Shown in pieces: positions 1 to 14,784 of a stretch of 43,883 nt of DNA. The notes beneath the pieces are model-generated. The model was given only the letters and a program-made list of their open reading frames with translations, searched no databases and was not told the origin of the DNA. This DNA is from Naegleria gruberi (Eukaryota): the NCBI GenBank assembly GCA_000004985.1, contig GG738970.1, one strand, 5' to 3'. The stretch's first letter is position 1. The number at the start of each line of letters is the position of its first letter. The position numbers and the translations under genes were made by a program.

Positions 1-1252
1 TTGATCTGTTCAATACTGATTGAGGAATGAAAGTTTTAATTTCAGCAAGCCACTCAACTGTATTCTTCAAATTATTGAAAATTGAGTTCACTTCTCTAAA
101 CATGGAACTGTTATTCGAAACACTACCCAAATCAAGAACTTTGATTCTTTCGAATTGCTTCTCCAAGAACTTCATAGGTCTCGAAACAACTAGTCCAGTA
201 ACAAAACTTCCAACAATTCCAAGAACAATAATTCCAACAGTGACACCAATAGAAATTGAAGTTGTCAAAATCAAAGCTTCAGTCACCTCTGATTCGTACA
301 AAACAAAGAAAATGTTCCACTGCATATTTTCCAAAACATACTTGTACGGAGTAATGATATAGCTAACACCATCAGATTCTCCCACAATTTTCATCACAGA
401 TGGCAAAATACTAAATGTTCTATTGTTCAACTCGTAGAATTGTTTCATTAGTGAACCAGCATTTCTCGACTTGACATCAAAGATGTTTGTGCTATTTAAA
501 CCATCTCCTGAAATGGTATCGATGGATCCACCAATGACAATGAAATTGTCCTGAGCTACCAGAACGTAACCTCTTCCCAGTAATTCAATCTTGGAGAGAA
601 AGTTTACAATCGTTTCTAGTGAAAGATTAACTTTGGCCAATCCAACCAATGATTTCGTCTTGTTTAGTTTGTAAATTTCTGGATCGTACATTAATTGAGA
701 ATAATAAATGGCAACTGTACTTCCCAAAACCTTGTATGGTTCTCCATACACTCCTTCCAACCCCTTTTCGTAATAGTTTTTCAATGTATAAATGAAGAAA
801 TCTTGTTTGGCAGGTACGTAAGGAGTCAAGTCAACTGTAGAATTGACTTTTACAATGTCTCCTGTGGTGATATTCACAATATCTCTAATGGTGCCTGGAT
901 ATCCATATGGTTGATAGGCAAAAACTGGAAATGGATTACTCGTGGTTCCACTAATAGTATAGGTATATCTGGATGGGAGAGGAACGCTGAAGAAGAATCC
1001 ACAACCAGTAGTTCGAAATTCTACAAACTTTGGAAACAAGTAATTTCTAAACATGGGAATGGTCACAACACCTGTGGTATATTCTCTGGCCATGGTTTTG
1101 GTCAATTTGGCGATTGGTGTCATAACACCATCGAGATAGGTTATAATCTTTCTTCCAGATTCGTTTATGAGCTTGGTAGACAAATCATTAATTGCCTTCT
1201 CTGTTACCAGATAAGAAGATAGCCAAACCAATAAACACCCACTTAGAATCAT
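1..1252 (-). CDS. Two-TM extracellular sensor protein, N-terminal 417 aa: signal-anchor/TM1, double-Cache-like ectodomain, TM2 and HAMP linker. The output domain lies beyond the window start and may be a class III adenylate/guanylate cyclase.
   Basis: I translated the minus strand by hand from the ATG at 1252 (MILSGCLLVWLSSYLV...) down to position 1 and found no stop in 417 codons. The nearest upstream in-frame stop is the TAG at 1361-1363. Hydrophobic TM1 is aa 2-16. The ~300-aa ectodomain carries seven N-x-S/T sequons and a Cache-like core (SLVGLAKVNLSLETIVNFLSKIELLGRGYVLVAQDNFIVIGG, compare the Cache consensus lGVlgvDisL...GYvflvDkdG). TM2 is aa 327-356 (ILTTSISIGVTVGIIVLGIVGSFVTGLVV, plus 185-274). 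The HAMP-like segment is SRPMKFLEKQFERIKVLDLGS...REVNSIFNNLKNTV. The last residues, EIKTFIPQSVLNRS, resemble the LLxxxLPxSVAxxL start of cyclase homology domains. The plus-strand track ORFs 27..362 and 695..1222 are antisense shadows of this gene. Confidence 0.6.
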   Translation of the reverse strand, partial: MILSGCLLVWLSSYLVTEKAINDLSTKLINESGRKIITYLDGVMTPIAKLTKTMAREYTTGVVTIPMFRNYLFPKFVEFRTTGCGFFFSVPLPSRYTYTISGTTSNPFPVFAYQPYGYPGTIRDIVNITTGDIVKVNSTVDLTPYVPAKQDFFIYTLKNYYEKGLEGVYGEPYKVLGSTVAIYYSQLMYDPEIYKLNKTKSLVGLAKVNLSLETIVNFLSKIELLGRGYVLVAQDNFIVIGGSIDTISGDGLNSTNIFDVKSRNAGSLMKQFYELNNRTFSILPSVMKIVGESDGVSYIITPYKYVLENMQWNIFFVLYESEVTEALILTTSISIGVTVGIIVLGIVGSFVTGLVVSRPMKFLEKQFERIKVLDLGSVSNNSSMFREVNSIFNNLKNTVEWLAEIKTFIPQSVLNRS

Positions 1253-1287
1253 TACTGAAATAATTGAAACAATAAAGAGATTGAGTG

Positions 1288-1296
1288 GAATAATAC
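1288..1296. repeat. Left 9-bp target-site duplication (GAATAATAC) of the MULE-like element
   Basis: The same 9-mer, GAATAATAC, recurs in direct orientation at 3950-3958. Each copy sits immediately outside a terminus that begins 5'-GAGT (left) or ends ...ACTC-3' (right). Confidence 0.45.
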
Positions 1297-1400
1297 GAGT
1301 TGATACAAATAAACGGTGAGACGGGCAACGGGATGAACGGGATTCAGGCCGTTCCTTATTCTAAACGGGAGATTCTCTCCGCTTAATACATCTCACTGGT
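1297..1400. repeat. Left terminal / subterminal repeat region of the MULE-like element (AACGGG motif x3-4)
   Basis: A GC-richer island in AT-rich DNA. It reads gagttgatacaaataaacggtgagacgggcaacgggatgaacgggattcaggccgttcc...ctaaacggga. Confidence 0.45.
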
Positions 1401-1677
1401 ATTCAAATAAGGAGTGAGAGAATAGTAACTTTTGAAAAAAGAAGGAGACAATAAATTATATACGAATTTCTTTTTTTACTTATCATGAAAGCAAAAAAAA
1501 GAAACAATATTTTACCTTAGTAACCATTCACTTCGCTCAGTCTGCCTTAGGAAGTCATACGTTGAGAGAATAACATTTCTTAAATTTTCTCTCTAGTAAA
1601 CTTATTGCTAAAGATTTTATTCGATTGCTTTAAAAAAAATGGTTTTCGATTACAAATCTGTCATCAAAGCAAACAAT

Positions 1678-1770
1678 AAGAAGTTTCACTCTGATACACT
1701 ACACCAGTTTCTGGGTATTGTGGTGGTTTTGTTACTACAACTGGTGTAGTGTATCAGAGTGAAACTTCTT
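1678..1770. repeat. Perfect 30-bp inverted repeat (hairpin) with a 33-nt loop, overlapping the 5' end of the transposase ORF
   Basis: The left arm 1678-1707 (aagaagtttcactctgatacactacaccag) is the exact reverse complement of the right arm 1741-1770 (ctggtgtagtgtatcagagtgaaacttctt). Confidence 0.85.
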
Positions 1771-3650
1771 TTTCTGACAAAGCTCAATATTCATTTCGAC
1801 AAGACCCAAAATATTGGGTTGAAGTGAATAAAGAGCAATTCGAGGTTCTCATTTTGAGATGTAATGGCGTTAAAACTTGTTCTAAATGTCCAAATGTATA
1901 TCCAGTCAGTTGCAAGAAAAAGCTATGTAAGACTCATGGTGAACAACTAGAAAAAATTGGGTGTGAGGTAAAGTTCTATCAATTAAAGAAAAGGAATGAA
2001 GCATTATTCTTCTTTACTGGCGATGGAATTCATTCACACGATGTCCCACCACCGAATAAGGTTGACAAGGATGAAGAACAAGCTATTGTGTTGTCATTTC
2101 AACAAAATCCAACTCTTACACCAAAACAAGCTCTGCTTGGTGTTGGAACTCATGATTTGCCTTACCTTAGAAATCCTGCTTTATTGAACATTTCCAAGTA
2201 TCAAAATTTCAAAAGAAAAGCCCTTCTCAAAGTTTCAATGGATAATCCTAATCCAATGTCTACATTGTTTAAAGTAGAACAAGAAATACCAATTTTATTG
2301 AAAGAGTATTTTGAGAAAGAAAGTTTCACTATTCATGTCTCAGATTTAATGACAACATATATGAGACAGTTTTATTTCAATGGTGTTGATACTTTTGCTG
2401 TTATTCAGTTTCCAATTCAATCTTTAATCACTAACTCTTGTGATTTTCTTGTGATTGACTTGAAACACGCTTCCAAATCAGGTCCATTCACTAACTGTCT
2501 TGGAATTTCAAGCTATATTGATACTCCTAAAGGAGGTTTGCCAATGCATTTATCTAGAATACTAATGGATAACTTCAACTATTATCAATCCTTCAAACTT
2601 TGGCTTATTACTTTAGCTGATGATGGTGTAGATTTGACTGATTTATTTAAAAATCAACTAAAGGGTATATTGATTGATTTCTCTCAATCTCAATTAGCTG
2701 GATTGAAAAAAGCCGTTGCAGAATATGTTGTCGATGGAGAAATGCTTATTACAAAGCTAGCTTCTGGTTGCTTTGTTCATTTTTTGAGAAGTGTCAAAAG
2801 AGCTATAAAAACACTCTCTATCTCTGAAGAACACCAAAAGCTGATTCTTGAATTGGCTAAAACTATTCAATTTGTCAAAACCAAGAAGGAGATTGTGTCA
2901 ATATTAGATTCAATTGTTTGTATCGCTTCTTCTCTCGGTTCCTGGAGAAATTGGTGGATCATTCCTGAAGTTTTGAATTTATTGCATTCAGCTAGTCACC
3001 GTCAGAATCCTGAAATTGTTCCAGATAACACAAATAATCAAGAGATTCTCCATGCTGTAGACGTTCCATGCTATTTCGCTAATGCACTTGTTGAATGTGC
3101 TATGCTGTTGAAACATGATATACTAGCAGTTTCCAAATTTGTTGGTTTGAATCAAGGATTCAAGATTTCCAACATATCCACAACTAAAGAGGATAGAGAG
3201 AAAAGAAATGACAGAAGAAAGGAGCTTAAGAATGCTGCTCAAACAGCCAAGTATGATTCTAGACCACCTGATAGTTTGACAAATGGTTTAGAAGCTGGAT
3301 TTACATCAGTTGATGTTTTGAAATCATTTGTCAGCGCTTGGGATAAGACAACTGTTACTGAGCTTGGTGAAATCCTTGTTGATGATGAAAAAGATGAAGA
3401 TTTCTTAATGCCTGTTTCTCCAAATCATTCCTCATCCAAGAGTACCAGTTCTCCTTCTACACCAAAGGCCAAGAAGAAGAGAAAGAGATCTCCAAAAGCT
3501 GCCACTCCTACAACAAGTTCAAATTCAGCTACTTCTCCATCTTTCTCCAGACAGCTTAGAGAAATAGCTAAACAATCATCCTCAACAGGAACTTCTCTTC
3601 CAAGAAATCTACGTCCGAATAGATTCTCTCTTCCTGGCAGGTTGCAATAA
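1749..3650 (+). CDS. MULE/MuDR-family transposase with an N-terminal WRKY-GCM1 (FLYWCH-like) zinc finger. The frame is open from 1695, and the first codon in the ORF track is GTG, not ATG.
   Basis: The N-terminus reads DPKYW...LRCNGVKTCSKCPNV...FFFTGDGIHSHDVPPP, a WRKY-type C-x-C...H-x-H finger of the kind typical at MULE transposase N-termini. The core reads FYFNGVDTFAV...GILIDFSQSQLAGLKKAVAEYV...SGCFVHFLRSV, matching the MULE DDE region (vDgTf / ilTDgd.al.kAi / C..H motif). There is a possible degenerate SWIM-like PCYFANALVECAMLLKH. The C-terminus is basic and S/T-rich (KAKKKRKRSPK). The intact 633 codons lie inside the TSD-flanked element. Confidence 0.65.
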   Translation: MYQSETSFSDKAQYSFRQDPKYWVEVNKEQFEVLILRCNGVKTCSKCPNVYPVSCKKKLCKTHGEQLEKIGCEVKFYQLKKRNEALFFFTGDGIHSHDVPPPNKVDKDEEQAIVLSFQQNPTLTPKQALLGVGTHDLPYLRNPALLNISKYQNFKRKALLKVSMDNPNPMSTLFKVEQEIPILLKEYFEKESFTIHVSDLMTTYMRQFYFNGVDTFAVIQFPIQSLITNSCDFLVIDLKHASKSGPFTNCLGISSYIDTPKGGLPMHLSRILMDNFNYYQSFKLWLITLADDGVDLTDLFKNQLKGILIDFSQSQLAGLKKAVAEYVVDGEMLITKLASGCFVHFLRSVKRAIKTLSISEEHQKLILELAKTIQFVKTKKEIVSILDSIVCIASSLGSWRNWWIIPEVLNLLHSASHRQNPEIVPDNTNNQEILHAVDVPCYFANALVECAMLLKHDILAVSKFVGLNQGFKISNISTTKEDREKRNDRRKELKNAAQTAKYDSRPPDSLTNGLEAGFTSVDVLKSFVSAWDKTTVTELGEILVDDEKDEDFLMPVSPNHSSSKSTSSPSTPKAKKKRKRSPKAATPTTSSNSATSPSFSRQLREIAKQSSSTGTSLPRNLRPNRFSLPGRLQ

Positions 3651-3849
3651 TAAAATTGACTTATTGAATTTTTTGTTCTATTTGTTTTATAATTGGAAAA
3701 TCTCTTTATTGCAATAGACTAGAGTTGAATAATGAAATATATCCATTTTTGAATTGTTACACACTTTCTTTGTAATTCTAAATTCAGTCATTTCACCTTT
3801 TAAGCGTTTTTACAGTGTTCCTTAGTTAGAGAGCTACCTTACTTTCCTG

Positions 3850-3949
3850 TTCCGTTTCTTACTCCAAACTGGACCGTCCTACCGTTTCTTATTTGAAACG
3901 GATTCCGTTAGACTGGCTTTCCCGCTATCCCGTTTCTTAGTATTCACTC
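3850..3949. repeat. Right terminal / subterminal repeat region of the MULE-like element (CCGTTTCTTA x3 plus ccgtt)
   Basis: The sequence is ttccgtttcttactcc...ctaccgtttcttatttgaaacggattccgtta...tatcccgtttcttagtattcactc. It is inverted relative to the left-end AACGGG copies. It also contains a small hairpin, ccgtttc-ttattt-gaaacgg. Confidence 0.45.
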
Positions 3950-3958
3950 GAATAATAC
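3950..3958. repeat. Right 9-bp target-site duplication (GAATAATAC)
   Basis: Identical to 1288-1296. Confidence 0.45.
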
Positions 3959-4748
3959 CTGTGCAGCAAGTACGCGGCTGTGTCTTTGGATTGAGTGGTT
4001 CTTTGATAGCCACAACGGATGGAGTTGTCTGTTCCTCATACTCACTTCCTGATGGTGCAACTTTCGTCATTGAAACTGAAGGTTATGATGATGTTTTTTC
4101 TTATTGTGTTTCAATACGTTATTGTAGTTTTATGACATAACTTTTTTCACCTCAACACCAATCATTTTTCCATCTCATCCATGTTGATAGATTAAAATCA
4201 TGATTAACTAACAATTTCAATGTATGCCATATCGTGAGATGAAAATTGTAAGGATTTGGCAATTATAATAAAGATTGTTGTTTGATTTCTTGTGATGTTT
4301 TAAAATAAAGCACATAAAAACACAAAACTTGCCGCGATTTGAGATAAAAAGGAAATTGTAGTGTACTCCCATAGCTTCAAAACACATCAAGAAGGCAAAC
4401 AACAGGCAAACGATTTTCGTTAAATTCTAAGCCCACCATTATCTCAAAACCTGGCATGTTTTTCCAAATTGCTTAAAGCAGGATACTCAAACAACTTTTA
4501 ATTTCCCTACAGCAAATTATTGTAGTTTTCGAAGGATTTTTTTTACACTCTAAGACCTCGACAATTCAACAAATCAAACTCTTTGGACATGAGGATTTGG
4601 CAGTCTCGTGCTTGTTACGTAGAGGTGAGAAGTAGAGAGTGATAGGGTGAGAGTTTAACTCCTGATGTTTTGTGCTCAAGGAGGTTTCGTTCCAATTCTT
4701 GTTTGTAAGGAGGCAATTAAGTTAAGGCTTGGTGCTCTCCAAATAAAA

Positions 4749-5021
4749 ATGTCGGAACCAACTAACAGCAACACTCTGGACGGCACTCAAGAAATTATGT
4801 GGGAGGAAACACCTAACAAAGAAGCCGAGGAAATTGAAGAAATACTTCAACAATATTTGCACTCATTGTGTGATATTTATAATACAAAGTATAAAACAAA
4901 TCATACAATCGGTGCTATATGTGATACAATTTTCACCAAGAATGGAATTGAGTTGTTTGTTGGTGGTTGCACAGAGAGTAAGGCAAAAGGAATTGAAATA
5001 ATTGAACAATTATTAACTTAG
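4749..5021 (+). CDS. Small acidic hypothetical protein (about 90 aa)
   Basis: The ATG at 4749 sits in an A-rich context (aaataaaaATGtcg). The product reads MSEPTNSNTLDGTQEIMWEETPNKEAEEIEEILQQYLHSLCDIYNTKYKTNHTIGAICDTIFTKNGIELFVGGCTESKAKGIEIIEQLLT*. The track ORF starts at an upstream ATG at 4665, which I consider less likely. I recognise no family. Confidence 0.4.
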   Translation: MSEPTNSNTLDGTQEIMWEETPNKEAEEIEEILQQYLHSLCDIYNTKYKTNHTIGAICDTIFTKNGIELFVGGCTESKAKGIEIIEQLLT

Positions 5022-5136
5022 TAGTACCGTTTCAGTTTTACCTAGTTGTAATAACACCGGAAATTTATTTATGTTTTTACAATAAAGCTGAAGTAGTCAA
5101 ATGATGATATTTAAATATATATATAATATATATATA
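5021..5136. repeat. About 120-bp segment duplicated in direct orientation at 5418-5540, on either side of the 50-N gap. It is the 3' flank of the 4749 gene, contains an aataaa, and ends in a (TA)n run.
   Basis: Both copies read tagtaccgtttcagttttacctagttgtaataa(a)caccggaaatttatttatgtttttaacaataaa(a)gctgaa(a)gtagtcaaatgatgatattt(a/g)aaatatatat, differing only by 1-bp indels. Confidence 0.75.
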
Positions 5137-5186
5137 NNNNNNNNNNNNNNNNNNNNNNNNNNNNNNNNNNNNNNNNNNNNNNNNNN
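5137..5186. other. Assembly gap (50 N)
   Basis: Run of n. Confidence 0.95.
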
Positions 5187-5310
5187 AAATGTCTGGTAAT
5201 AACAAGAATACTGGAAAGACACAAAGGAAACAACACGCTGTATCATCTCCATCTCATCCTAAACAAAGAGTGGACCCACCACTCCCTCCCAAAAACCGTT
5301 GCGCTCATTA
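5187..5310 (+). pseudogene. Duplicated 5' fragment of the minus-strand gene that starts at 7964. It encodes MSGNNKNTGKTQRKQHAVSSPSHPKQRVD, then diverges, and is immediately gap-adjacent.
   Basis: 5187-5208 and 5221-5274 are identical to the reverse complement of 7967-7870, with a 12- versus 9-nt substituted block in between. Homology ends after aaacaaagagtgga, and the frame stops at a TAA at 5308-5310. Confidence 0.45.
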
Positions 5311-5317
5311 ATCTTTG

Positions 5318-5415
5318 GTAAGGGATTAATTTCTGAGTGAGGTTTCATCAATGTTTCGGAAACATTGTAAAATTTTCTTTATTTCACTAACATTTCTTTC
5401 TCATATTCACCTTAG
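5318..5415 (+). other. Intron-like segment: GTAAGG donor, ACTAAC branch point 24 nt upstream of a TTAG acceptor
   Basis: gtaagg lies at 5318-5323, actaac at 5386-5391 and ttag ends at 5415. The duplicated 3'-flank repeat begins right after the acceptor. I cannot place the element in a coherent gene model. Confidence 0.3.
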
Positions 5416-5417
5416 TA

Positions 5418-5530
5418 GTACCGTTTCAGTTTTACCTAGTTGTAATAAACACCGGAAATTTATTTATGTTTTTAACAATAAAAGCTGAAAGTAGTCAAAT
5501 GATGATATTTGAAATATATATATATTTGAA

Positions 5531-5540
<10 letters not shown>
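5418..5540. repeat. Second copy of the 3'-flank repeat (see 5021-5136)
   Basis: Near-identical to 5021-5136. Confidence 0.75.

Positions 5541-5560
<20 letters not shown>
5511..5560. repeat. (TA)n microsatellite, interrupted
   Basis: Contains atatatatatatttgaaatatatatatatatatatatatatatat. Confidence 0.9.
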
Positions 5561-5561
<1 letters not shown>

Positions 5562-6036
5562 AATTGATGTTAGTTCCATTTATTTTTAAACTTATCACTC
5601 CATCAACCTCCATGAATCTAGTTGTCTGTTTCTTGTTGTAAGAGTTTTTCTTTGTTTTAATAAACAACTATCATAACTCTACTTTTACTACTTCTAATAA
5701 CAGTGTTTTTGTAATATTTTTACAAAGTTTGTTCTTTCTTTGAATTCATTTTCTTTGGATTTACCATAAAGATTATTACTTCCAATCAATAATCTTCATA
5801 ATGATAATACCAACTTTAGAAGATTTTTAAAAATTAATGGGTTTTTATATTATATATATTACTTTGTTAAGCTTTTCTAAATTTCAAATCGATAAATTTT
5901 TGAAAATTTATTTTAGCTTCTTAATTTTCAATTAATTTCATTATCTTTATATCTAAATCACTTTTAAATGATTTTTCAGATAAACCAATTTAACCACCAT
6001 CTTATAAACCAACTTTCAACAAAAATTTTTTCGGAT

Positions 6037-6061
6037 GTATATATATATATATATATATATA
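6037..6061. repeat. (TA)n microsatellite
   Basis: Contains gtatatatatatatatatatatatat. Confidence 0.9.
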
Positions 6062-6062
6062 A

Positions 6063-6340
6063 ATGCATGCGAAAATTTTTATTTTATTTTTATTAAATAT
6101 CTAATATGACAAACATATCCCACCAACGCATGTATGAAAATTCGTATTTTTCATTGAAATACTAATAAATTTCTAGGTTTTATCGAAATTTTTTTCAAAA
6201 AAACATTTTTTAAAAAAATACCAAAACTCAACATTTTTTCCTTTTTTTAATTTACATATTTTTACTACTCGATATTAAATGGTAAACATGGTATGGAAAA
6301 AATTGTATCATCAAGATTCTAATAAATATGATTGAAGTTG
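6063..6340. repeat. Degenerate ~45-bp tandem minisatellite-like repeat (3 copies)
   Basis: The three units are catgcgaaaattttta...attaaatatctaatatgacaaacat, catgtatgaaaattcgtatttttcattgaaatactaataaatttcta and catggtatggaaaaaattgtatcatcaagattctaataaatatgatt. They share a CATG..GAAAA..T..CTAATAAAT skeleton. Confidence 0.3.
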
Positions 6341-6927: not shown

Positions 6928-7386
6928 GGAATGTGGGCATGCAAGTTGGATTTAAAGAAAGGTTATTTTCAAGTTCCAGTAAGGAAACAACACAAAGTCC
7001 TATTAGGATTCATCTTCGAAGGCAAAACTTACCACTTTCAATGCCTTCCGTTCGGTTTAAGTACAGCCCCTCGGTTATTCACCAAAATAATGAAGGAAGT
7101 TATCAAGAAATGGAGGCAGAGAGGCACAATCATATTTATTTACATAGACGACATGTTAATATTAGACAATTCAGCAAAAGAGGTTTCCGAAAAGATAAGA
7201 ACAATTCTTTCAGATTTAAACTTGCTAGGTTGGCTAGTTCAAGAAGAAAAATCTATACTTATCCCAACTCAATCAATAGATTTTCTTGGTCTCCACTTCG
7301 ATCTGGAAAAGGGAAAAGTGCAAATCCCATTAGAAAAACAAGAGTTACCATTTCTCAATCTTTTACAAACTTGTACAATAATGTGA
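6928..7386 (+). pseudogene. Reverse transcriptase relic (DIRS / LTR-retrotransposon type), truncated at both ends; motif A through the region just past YxDD only
   Basis: The frame opens right after a TAA at 6925-6927. It reads LDLKKGYFQVPV...GFIFEGKTYHFQCLPFGLSTAPRLFTKIM...IFIYIDDMLIL...IDFLGLHFDLEKGKVQIP. This matches the RT LDLxxgY motif, the PFGLxxAPxxFTK motif (which fits DIRS/BEL-like better than gypsy's PFGLxNAP..FQ) and YxDD. The upstream RT motifs 1-2 are missing, and so are RNase H and integrase/YR. The frame ends at a TGA at 7387-7389. Confidence 0.75.
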
Positions 7387-13976: not shown

Positions 13977-14784
13977 AAAGGGTGAGCTATTGGCTCCAGT
14001 TGGTTTGTTTGGAGCGAATCTATTCTCAGCTGATTCTAATAATCCACTTTGGAAAAAGCACAGAACATTGGCTAATCCAGTATTCAGTAACAGTTCTCAT
14101 TTAAGGAATGTTTTTAGAGTTACAATGGAGGAATTAGCAAAGATGATTCCATACTGGACTAAATATTATGATTCAGATTCTAATGGAAATATTCGAAATG
14201 TTAACACTACACAAGAGTTGAAGTCTATTACATTAAGCATTATCAATAGAGTTGCATTCGATTTCAATATAGAGATATTTGATAAGAATCCTGAACACAG
14301 AGACGAAGTACATGGTTGGATTTCTGATTTATTAGTTGGTTTATTATACAAGTTTGTATTCCCTGAATGGTTATTCGAATATGTTCCTTTTGGAATTTTC
14401 AAAAGATTTAAAGATGCAAAGAATAGATTCAGAGAGACAGCCATGAAGATGATTCTCAAAAAGACAAAGGAATATGAGAATGCCAATCAAGTGAAAGAAG
14501 ATGAAGATTTACTAAGCTTATTGTTGAAAAGCTCCAATAATGGTAAATTAACAGAGGAAGAACGTTTGACAAATGACGAATTGGTTAGTGCCATTTTCAT
14601 TATTTTCTTTGCTGGATTTGAAACAAGTTCCAATTCTTTGAACTTCATGTTGAGATTGTTGGCAACCAGACCAGAAATACAAGAAAAACTCATTGAAGAA
14701 ATTGATAATGAAATTCCATCCATGGATTCAATCAAATCAAAAGAGAGTTTAATAAACTTAAATATTTTACAACACTCAATTTAG
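13977..14784 (+). CDS. Cytochrome P450, internal fragment (helix C region through the I-helix and EEID). The 5' part is in the gap, and the C-terminal third (ExxR, PERF, heme-binding Cys loop) is not recoverable downstream.
   Basis: The frame is open straight out of the gap. It reads KGELLAPVGLFGANLFSADSNNPLWKKHRTLANPVFS (P450 G.GL...G..W...R...P.F region), then ...DLLSLLLKS...LTNDELVSAIFIIFFAGFETSSNSLNFMLRLLATRPEIQEKLIEEID (the canonical I-helix A/G-G-x-E-T-S motif plus hP.vq.kl.eEid). It stops at a TAG at 14782-14784, where the K-helix is expected. The next in-frame codons read RLFSCKRFPLIKIPVKQ*. The track's first codon, at 13990, is TTG and not a true start. Confidence 0.8.

What the first reader, a model, noticed from the sequence alone, without database searches (positions are those of the whole stretch)
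1288..3958. Apparently intact, recently inserted MULE-like transposon with 9-bp TSDs, sitting in the promoter of the Cache-HAMP receptor gene
I found by eye a 9-bp direct repeat, GAATAATAC, at 1288-1296 and 3950-3958. It flanks termini that are imperfect inverted repeats of each other (about 20/29 matches, both starting GAGT). The two ends carry inverted clusters of AACGGG / CCGTTT subterminal repeats. The single internal ORF (633 codons, uninterrupted) encodes a Mutator-superfamily transposase with a WRKY/GCM1-type zinc finger.

Perfect 9-bp TSDs and an intact ORF argue for a young and possibly still mobile copy. The left end lies only 45 bp from the start codon of the divergently transcribed sensor gene (ATG at 1252), so the element may contribute to or disrupt its promoter.
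Basis: partly seen in the sequence, partly recalled or inferred. Interest (0 to 1): 0.6.

Follow-up and report, generated by a model that had tools for sequence, protein, structure and literature searches.

The report
Known GCM-finger Mutator transposon splitting a gene
This is a real 2.65-kb cut-and-paste DNA transposon of the already described MuDRF branch of the Mutator superfamily in the amoeba Naegleria gruberi; it sits inside the coding sequence of a membrane-receptor gene rather than in its promoter, so it is an ordinary, if tidy, example.

Summary
GAATAATAC occurs exactly twice in the window, at 1288-1296 and 3950-3958. It flanks imperfect inverted termini that start GAGT (16/20, 20/29) and inverted clusters of five ACGG / five CCGT repeats. 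The window is a Naegleria gruberi scaffold.

The closest relative, in N. lovaniensis, sits at six loci as a 2528-bp element that is 99.96-100% identical. It has GAG...CTC ends and perfect 9-bp duplications at five of the six loci.

Cantu et al. 2011 already named this group MuDRF (GCM domain, DDE transposase, 9-bp TSD) and reported a full-length copy in N. gruberi.

Two corrections:
- The element is inside the neighbour's coding sequence. Excision restores an ORF of at least 469 codons starting at ATG 4070, colinear with paralogues.
- The transposase ORF lacks an in-frame ATG. A 35-nt inverted duplication lies between the out-of-frame ATG 1639 and the ORF, so "intact" is doubtful.

Family already known; low interest.

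The parts
1288..1296 (+). Left 9-bp target-site duplication, GAATAATAC
   Evidence: Exact match to 3950-3958 and the only two copies in the window. On the minus strand it encodes part of G-I-I-P of the interrupted host gene.
1297..1325 (+). Left terminal inverted repeat, starting GAGTTGATAC
   Evidence: 16/20 and 20/29 identity to the reverse complement of the right end. It shares GAGTTG with the left end of the N. lovaniensis element.
1312..1369 (+). Left subterminal repeat cluster: five (A/G)ACGG(G/T) motifs plus one inverted CCGTT. These are the presumed transposase-binding sites.
   Evidence: ACGG at 1313, 1321, 1328, 1337 and 1365; Poisson P about 1e-8. The binding role is inferred.
1639..1714 (+). 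Annotated exon 1 of the transposase gene model (ATG 1639), out of frame with the long ORF
   Evidence: P0001 model MVFDYKSVIKANNKKFHSDTLHQFL|D. ATG 1639 is in a different frame from the ORF and reaches a stop at 1747.
1675..1773 (+). 35-nt inverted duplication (arms 1675-1709 and 1739-1773, 97% complementary, 29-nt loop) between the ATG and the conserved ORF
   Evidence: the repeat finder I1. RNA fold -59.8 kcal/mol, z -10. No counterpart in the N. lovaniensis element. Arm 2 encodes the conserved N-terminal motif.
1715..1803 (+). Annotated 89-nt intron (GT...AG), probably a gene-model workaround
   Evidence: Deduced from P0001 against the DNA. The 'intron' encodes YQSETSFSDKAQYSFRQ. This aligns to coding sequence YEGSSISDNSLKTGIQYSIKF in N. 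lovaniensis P0068 and YHSSTISDPFKSLIQYNIKL in N. gruberi P0086.
1749..3650 (+). Long transposase ORF (633 codons as listed; frame open from 1695; stop TAA 3648-3650)
   Evidence: 100% identical to the NCBI N. gruberi predicted protein P0001. 36% identical to N. lovaniensis P0002, E 4e-77.
1860..2039 (+). GCM-type zinc-finger DNA-binding domain (C45, C51, C54, C67, C79, H102, H104 in P0001 numbering)
   Evidence: The cysteines are invariant in the family alignment. The family profile hits the mouse GCM1 DBD 1ODH at E 1.3e-7. Pfam GCM hits occur in homologues. Model pLDDT is above 90 here.
2457..3044 (+). DDE catalytic core: D244 (2457-2459), D317 (2676-2678), C348xxH351 (2769-2780), W409-W410, N436, E439 (3042-3044), with an all-alpha insertion domain between strand 5 and the E helix
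3252..3275 (+). Conserved C-terminal motif YDSRPPDS (family consensus DGRAPD), followed by a low-complexity S/K-rich tail with KKKRKR
   Evidence: Family alignment. The tail is disordered in the model.
3852..3934 (-). Right subterminal repeat cluster: five ACGG motifs on the minus strand plus one inverted copy
   Evidence: CCGT at 3852, 3874, 3882, 3905 and 3930; P about 1e-8.
3921..3949 (-). Right terminal inverted repeat, starting GAGTGAATAC on the minus strand
3950..3958 (+). Right 9-bp target-site duplication, GAATAATAC
3959..4070 (-). Detached 5' coding piece of the interrupted host gene (ATG 4070; MTKVAPSGSEYEEQTTPSVVAIKEPLNPKTQPRTCCT-G)
   Evidence: It joins in frame to 1296..2 once the element and one TSD copy are removed. 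Its N-terminus is homologous to paralogues P0083, P0084 and P0085.
2..1296 (-). Main body of the interrupted host gene. It covers the rest of TM1, an extracellular domain of about 350 aa, TM2 and a juxtamembrane segment, and runs off the window end.
   Evidence: It is annotated as 'predicted protein, partial' P0081 starting at Met-1252.

Best explanation
Positions 1297-3949 are one copy of a MuDRF-type DNA transposon in Naegleria gruberi. MuDRF is the GCM-finger-bearing, distant branch of the Mutator/MuDR superfamily. The copy inserted by a DDE cut-and-paste reaction. The transposase made a 9-bp staggered cut at GAATAATAC, joined the GAG...CTC ends, and gap repair produced the two TSD copies.

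The single encoded protein has three parts. The N-terminal GCM-type two-zinc DNA-binding domain presumably reads the (A/G)ACGG(G) repeats clustered inside both ends. The RNase H-like DDE core (D244, D317, E439, with the CxxH signature and an all-alpha insertion domain) does the chemistry. A basic, disordered tail follows.

The target was the coding sequence of a two-pass membrane receptor-like gene on the opposite strand. The insertion cuts between its cytoplasmic N-terminus and the first transmembrane helix, so that allele can at best make an N-terminally truncated product.

The insertion looks recent: the TSD is perfect and both halves of the host ORF are still open. This particular copy is probably not autonomous as it stands, because a 35-nt inverted duplication separates the only upstream ATG from the conserved reading frame.

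What is shown: the geometry, the homology, the family's mobility in a sister species, and the in-frame restoration of the host gene. What is inferred: binding of the repeats by the GCM domain, the reaction chemistry, the age of the insertion, and the functional state of the copy.
For: - The TSD, TIRs and subterminal repeats are verified and far beyond chance.
- The organism and protein are identified.
- There are 67 homologues with invariant D/D/E, CxxH and zinc-finger cysteines.
- The family profile hits GCM1 1ODH at E 1.3e-7 and the 'Mutator family transposase' ISCth4 at E 4.8e-7.
- Two of 66 members hit NCBIfam transpos_IS256, the only transposase family matched.
- N. lovaniensis has six loci with a 2528-bp element that is 99.96-100% identical and has GAGTTG...CCTC ends. 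The 9-bp TSDs are perfect at five of the six.
- Excising the window element restores an ORF of at least 469 codons with a complete TM helix. That ORF is colinear with three paralogues across the junction, with G38, P41 and L42 invariant.
- Cantu et al. 2011 (PMC3164196) describe MuDRF as having a GCM domain, a DDE transposase and a 9-bp TSD, and report a full-length element in N. gruberi.
Against: - The protein itself has no Pfam hit at E<=1, and only 1 of 66 relatives touches PF10551 MULE, at E 0.0065.
- No second copy with these termini could be looked for, because the N. gruberi assembly is not in any searchable collection. No close paralogue is annotated.
- Direct comparison with the Repbase MuDRF consensus sequences was not possible.
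- The N-terminal region of the gene is irregular.
Confidence: 0.85

Rival explanations
1. The element belongs to a separate superfamily-level lineage within the hAT/P/MuDR/Kolobok 'CxxH' assemblage. On this reading it is not truly a Mutator, and the 9-bp TSD is convergent.
Against: By sequence, the profile reaches only ISCth4/IS256 among transposases. A 9-bp TSD is the Mutator hallmark: 8-11 bp in PMC6446971, against 8 bp for hAT and TTAA for Kolobok. The published PSI-BLAST link of MuDRF to MuDR also argues against it. No hAT dimerisation domain was found.
Confidence: 0.08
2. On this reading the element lies upstream of the receptor gene, in its promoter or 5' UTR, the gene starts at ATG 1252, and the open frame across the junction is coincidence.
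For: The NCBI annotation starts the (partial) protein P0081 at Met-1252. The left end is 45 bp from that ATG.
Against: Removing the element and one TSD copy joins ATG 4070 in frame to the ORF, with 37 further stop-free codons, and completes a TM helix. Three paralogues (46-58% identical) carry homologous N-termini running straight through the junction: MTK(V/I)APS..., G-x-x-P-L-N-x-F-I-V. P0081 is flagged as 'partial'.
Confidence: 0.05
3. The copy is fully autonomous. On this reading the annotated 89-nt intron (1715-1803) is real, splicing yields the 640-aa transposase P0001, and the hairpin is a regulatory feature.
For: GT...AG boundaries are present and the spliced frame is correct. All DNA-binding and catalytic residues are retained downstream. 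The hairpin is very stable, z -10.
Against: The N. lovaniensis gene is intronless with the same ATG-to-finger distance, 186 nt against 185 nt. The 'intron' encodes a motif conserved as protein in two other lineages. The hairpin is absent from the active N. lovaniensis element.
Confidence: 0.25
4. This is not a mobile element. On this reading it is a host (domesticated) gene that happens to be bracketed by a chance direct repeat.
For: There is only one annotated close copy in N. gruberi.
Against: The chance of the 9/9 repeat at fixed ends is about 1e-5. The ends carry TIRs and symmetric repeat clusters. The nearest relative is multi-copy, near-identical and flanked by TSDs. The host gene is precisely interrupted.
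Confidence: 0.01

Closest known systems
MuDRF elements (Repbase MuDRF-1_PSt and relatives; Cantu et al. 2011, PMC3164196)
   Same: One ORF, an N-terminal GCM DNA-binding domain, a DDE transposase only remotely similar to other MuDR transposases, and a 9-bp TSD. The paper explicitly reports a full-length element in Naegleria gruberi.
   Different: No difference could be established. Direct sequence comparison with the Repbase entries was not possible, so I cannot say whether this window holds the deposited N. gruberi copy or a second lineage. N. gruberi also encodes P0086, which is about 36-40% identical.
Naegleria lovaniensis element encoding P0068 (loci L001-L006)
   Same: The protein is 36% identical over its whole length. 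The left terminus is the same GAGTTG, the ends are GAG...CTC, and the TSD is 9 bp. Both have subterminal repeat clusters, a single ORF and a size near 2.5 kb.
   Different: The subterminal repeats have a different sequence (CACCTTACAC / CACTTGAGTG instead of ACGG). There are six or more near-identical copies. The ORF is continuous and intronless with its own ATG, and there is no 5' hairpin.
Canonical eukaryotic MULEs (MuDR/MURA, Jittery, Hop, Muta1, FAR1-type)
   Different: No PF10551 MULE hit, no SWIM finger and short TIRs of about 20-30 bp. The DNA-binding domain is of the GCM type proper, with the extra zinc site, rather than the FAR1/HxC type.
IS256-family transposase ISCth4 (PDB 6XG8, 6XGW, 6XGX)
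   Same: It is the best structural and the only sequence-detectable solved relative. The aligned region runs from the CxxH segment to TTN-x-x-E.
   Different: It is a bacterial insertion sequence of about 400 aa with no GCM finger and about 9-10% identity. Its copy-out/paste-in mechanism (recalled from the depositors' paper, not checked here) need not apply to this element.
Animal GCM transcription factors (mouse GCM1, PDB 1ODH)
   Same: The DNA-binding domain is homologous, with matching cysteine and histidine ligands and the GEH-x-H-P-x-P motif. The core of the element's repeats, (A/G)CGGG, resembles the GCM octamer ATGCGGGT (recalled from memory).
   Different: GCM factors have no transposase domain and are not mobile.

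Membership tests
MuDRF (GCM-domain branch of MuDR; Cantu et al. 2011) | Single protein with an N-terminal GCM DNA-binding domain | tested here: met
   The family profile hits mouse GCM1 1ODH at E 1.3e-7 over the finger. Pfam GCM hits occur in homologues, down to E 4.4e-7. All cysteine ligands are invariant and present in the window protein. The window protein alone does not reach Pfam GCM.
MuDRF (GCM-domain branch of MuDR; Cantu et al. 2011) | DDE transposase only distantly related to other MuDR transposases | tested here: met
MuDRF (GCM-domain branch of MuDR; Cantu et al. 2011) | 9-bp target-site duplication | tested here: met
   The window TSD is 9/9. Five of six N. lovaniensis copies have perfect 9-bp TSDs.
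MuDRF (GCM-domain branch of MuDR; Cantu et al. 2011) | Sequence similarity to the deposited Repbase MuDRF consensus sequences | not testable with these tools
   Repbase is not available here. The only link is the paper's statement that a full-length MuDRF exists in N. gruberi.
Mutator/MULE superfamily (Pfam PF10551 definition) | Significant match to the MULE transposase domain model | tested here: not met
   There are 0 Pfam families at E<=1 for the protein. One of 66 relatives matches at E 0.0065, below the cut-off.
Mutator/MULE superfamily (structural/TSD definition) | 8-11 bp TSD, TIRs, and an IS256-like DDE core with the C/DxxH signature | tested here: met
   The criteria come from PMC6446971 and PMC9587614.
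hAT superfamily | 8-bp TSD and a C-terminal hAT dimerisation domain | tested here: not met
   The TSD is 9 bp in 6 of 7 insertions. There is no hAT-domain Pfam hit. Hermes is a near-equal structural neighbour only at the level of the shared fold.
   No Cache or HAMP hit at E<=1 in the window ORF or in three full-length paralogues. There is only a sub-threshold Guanylate_cyc match, E 4e-4 to 7e-3. The two-TM topology with a large extracellular domain is compatible with a receptor, but the label is unproven.

The most novel reading that the evidence does not exclude
The 89-nt interval 1715-1803 and its -60 kcal/mol hairpin could form a genuine, regulated intron. Transposase would then be made only when the intron is spliced, a control analogous to that of the P element. 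In that case this copy would still be autonomous, and the insertion in the receptor gene would be a segregating, very recent event in the NEG-M strain.
Probability: 0.1. Interest if true: 0.4.

Novelty: already known. Interest (0 to 1): 0.2.

Why it matters
As a discovery it matters little. The family (MuDRF) and its presence in N. gruberi were published in 2011.

The useful outputs are corrections to the annotation:
- The 'partial' receptor-like gene is a transposon-split gene whose true start is at 4070.
- The transposase gene model probably hides a 5' lesion behind a predicted intron.

As a by-product, the N. lovaniensis relative appears to be currently or very recently active. It has six near-identical copies, and at least three interrupt long ORFs. 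That makes it a candidate tool for insertional mutagenesis in Naegleria. It also gives a clean non-fungal, non-animal example for studying how the GCM DNA-binding domain moved between transposases and animal transcription factors.

Tried and rejected
- Pfam on the ORF and on the neighbour: no MULE, FAR1, SWIM, Cache or HAMP hits.
- phmmer of the single protein against PDB sequences: only noise.
- Word-indexed protein search with the single protein, and later with the 66-sequence profile: both returned only the query itself.
- Exact-protein look-ups for N. gruberi DNA (P0001, the 633-aa ORF, P0082, P0086): none on record. No other N. gruberi copy, and no empty allele, could therefore be inspected.
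- Foldseek against AFDB50: library unavailable.
- P0082, a gene model on a 665-kb N. gruberi scaffold, is 100% identical to the window's host gene over 291 aa. I considered it as a possible empty allele. Its N-terminus is a frame-scrambled version of similar DNA, probably a contig edge beside a gap, so it says nothing either way.
- KDZ/Zisupton (8-bp TSD) and Kolobok (TTAA TSD; known in Naegleria) were considered from the literature and rejected on TSD length and on the profile hits.
- An introner-like reading, in which the element is spliced out of the host mRNA via GT in the TSD and TTTCAG at 1255-1257, stays in frame. It has no supporting data, and the N. lovaniensis ends carry no splice signals, so I did not adopt it.
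Full report
**What the window is.** The long ORF is 100% identical to an NCBI 'predicted protein' of Naegleria gruberi on a 43,883-bp contig. Only 12.3 kb of the window is sequence; the rest is three runs of N. GC content is 33%.

**Check of the observation.** GAATAATAC occurs at 1288-1296 and 3950-3958 and nowhere else. Immediately inside lie GAGTTGATACAAATAAACGG (+) and GAGTGAATACTAAGAAACGG (-). They match 16/20 and 20/29 ungapped, and their consensus is found only at these two sites, with none in shuffles. With the ends fixed by these termini, nine matching flanking bases have a chance probability of about 1e-5. ACGG occurs five times within 1313-1368, and CCGT five times within 3852-3933. 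About 0.07 occurrences per 100 nt are expected, giving P of about 1e-8 for each end. Each end also carries one oppositely oriented copy. The ORF 1749-3650 is open for 633 codons.

**What the protein is.** The protein alone has no Pfam family at E<=1 and no PDB relative by phmmer. A full HMMER scan of 1.8 billion representative proteins found 67 relatives. The best is a 679-aa protein at 36% identity, E 4e-77.

The alignment shows the following conserved features:
- an N-terminal C-x5-C-x2-C...C...C...H-x-H finger with invariant cysteines;
- an invariant D in hhhhD-x-K-H;
- a second D in DFS-x-AQ-x-x-G;
- GC-x-x-H-x-x-RS;
- W-x-x-WW;
- T-N-x-x-E;
- a C-terminal DGRAPD motif.

The window protein keeps all of them. 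D244, D317 and E439 lie at 2457, 2676 and 3042.

A profile of this alignment hits exactly two things among PDB sequences. One is the mouse GCM1 DNA-binding domain (1ODH, E 1.3e-7), over the finger. The other is the 'Mutator family transposase' ISCth4, an IS256-family enzyme (E 4.8e-7), from the CxxH segment to the catalytic E. Two relatives also hit NCBIfam transpos_IS256, the only transposase family matched. Pfam GCM is hit by two or three relatives, and Pfam MULE by only one, weakly.

**Is the family mobile?** The closest relative is from N. lovaniensis. Its 696-aa form is encoded identically at six loci. These loci share a 2528-bp block at 99.96-100% identity, with unrelated flanks. The block begins GAGTTGTTATA... 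and ends ...ATGTCCTC, has TIRs of about 40 bp, and carries subterminal repeats of its own. The 9-bp duplications are perfect at L003, L004, L005 and L006. The duplication at L001 is also perfect once an assembly gap and a duplicated partial copy are accounted for. L002 differs by an indel. This independently fixes the family's ends (GAG...CTC) and its TSD length, and it matches the window copy.

**Comparison with the literature.** Cantu et al. 2011 (PMC3164196) named 'MuDRF' a distant branch of the MuDR superfamily. Its single protein carries a GCM domain and a DDE transposase, and it has 9-bp TSDs. [quoted passage not shown] Babu et al. 2006 had already tied WRKY-GCM1 fingers to MULE transposases. 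The broad MULE survey of Dupeyron et al. 2019 gives 8-11 bp TSDs and does not include this branch. The kind is therefore known. N. gruberi also encodes a second lineage (P0086, 677 aa). Relatives occur in N. fowleri, Acrasis kona, a mucoromycete and many metagenomic eukaryotes.

**Where the element sits.** On the minus strand, an ATG at 4070 opens a short frame that runs into the right TSD. Deleting 1297-3958 (the element plus one TSD copy) joins it in frame to the large minus-strand ORF. The result is MTKVAPSGSEYEEQTTPSVVAIKEPLNPKTQPRTCCTGIIPLNLFIVSIISVMILSGCLLVWLSSYLV..., at least 469 codons, with a complete transmembrane helix. Three paralogues (46-58% identical, 755-797 aa) start the same way and run straight through the junction, with G38, P41 and L42 invariant. 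This works as a paralogue-based empty site. It shows that the insertion is in the coding sequence and that ATG 1252 is an internal Met. The NCBI protein that starts there is flagged 'partial'. Neither this gene nor its paralogues give Cache or HAMP hits, only a sub-threshold cyclase-domain match.

**State of this copy.** The long frame is open only from 1695 and has no ATG before the finger. ATG 1639 is in another frame and stops at 1747. The annotated model bridges the two frames with an 89-nt GT...AG intron at 1715-1803. Three observations argue against that intron:
- The N. lovaniensis gene is intronless, and its ATG-to-finger distance is 186 nt, against 185 nt here.
- The 'intron' encodes YQSETSFSDKAQYSFRQ, which aligns with coding motifs in N. 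lovaniensis and in N. gruberi P0086.
- A 35-nt, 97% inverted duplication (1675-1709 / 1739-1773; -59.8 kcal/mol, z -10) lies exactly there and is absent from the N. lovaniensis element.

The simplest reading is a local rearrangement, or a 1-nt error, that disconnects the start codon. 'Intact and possibly mobile' is therefore unproven.

**Mechanism.** I infer a standard Mutator-type DDE cut-and-paste reaction with a 9-bp staggered target cut. The GCM finger would recognise the (A/G)ACGG(G) repeats, whose CGGG core recalls the GCM octamer (from memory). The perfect TSD and the still-open halves of the host gene point to a recent event.

**Verdict.** The promoter placement is wrong. The kind of element is already published.

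Noticed in passing
L001-L006 (N. lovaniensis GCA_003324165.2), element at locus coordinates 3742-6269: There are six near-identical (99.96-100%) copies of the related 2528-bp element. Removing the element restores long ORFs across the junction at L001 (570 codons), L004 (511 codons, a Na/Ca-exchanger gene annotated as two genes) and L005 (566 codons). This suggests very recent or ongoing insertional disruption of genes.
   Followed up: partly
window 1675-1773: A 35-nt, 97% inverted duplication forms a -59.8 kcal/mol hairpin (z -10) between the transposase ATG and the conserved frame. One arm is conserved coding sequence and the other is its inverted copy, which looks like a template-switch type mutation.
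   Followed up: partly
window 6931-7386 (+): A reverse-transcriptase fragment (Pfam RVT_1, E 2e-21, with a YIDD motif) lies about 3 kb from the element and is overlapped by other short ORFs. It is probably a degraded retroelement.
   Followed up: partly
window 13990-14784 (+): A cytochrome P450 fragment (Pfam p450, E 6e-35) lies between two large N gaps.
   Followed up: no
window 1-890 (minus strand) against protein P0082: A gene model on a 665-kb N. gruberi scaffold is 100% identical to this gene over 291 aa, but its N-terminus is a frame-scrambled version of similar DNA. The last bases of the window also differ by a 1-nt indel. The small scaffold may be an unmerged haplotype, or it may be the filler of a gap in the large scaffold.
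   Followed up: partly
homologues P0004, P0026, P0095 (metagenomic): Some members of the transposase family carry extra domains: a C-terminal chromodomain (P0004, E 4e-12) and a RecQ-type helicase fusion (P0026 at 1666 aa; P0095).
   Followed up: no
window 3958-1255 (minus strand): On the host-gene strand the right TSD reads CAG|GTATTATTC, and a TTTCAG lies at 1255-1257. Splicing between them would remove the whole element and stay in frame, losing 13 codons. This is pure sequence observation with no expression data.
   Followed up: no
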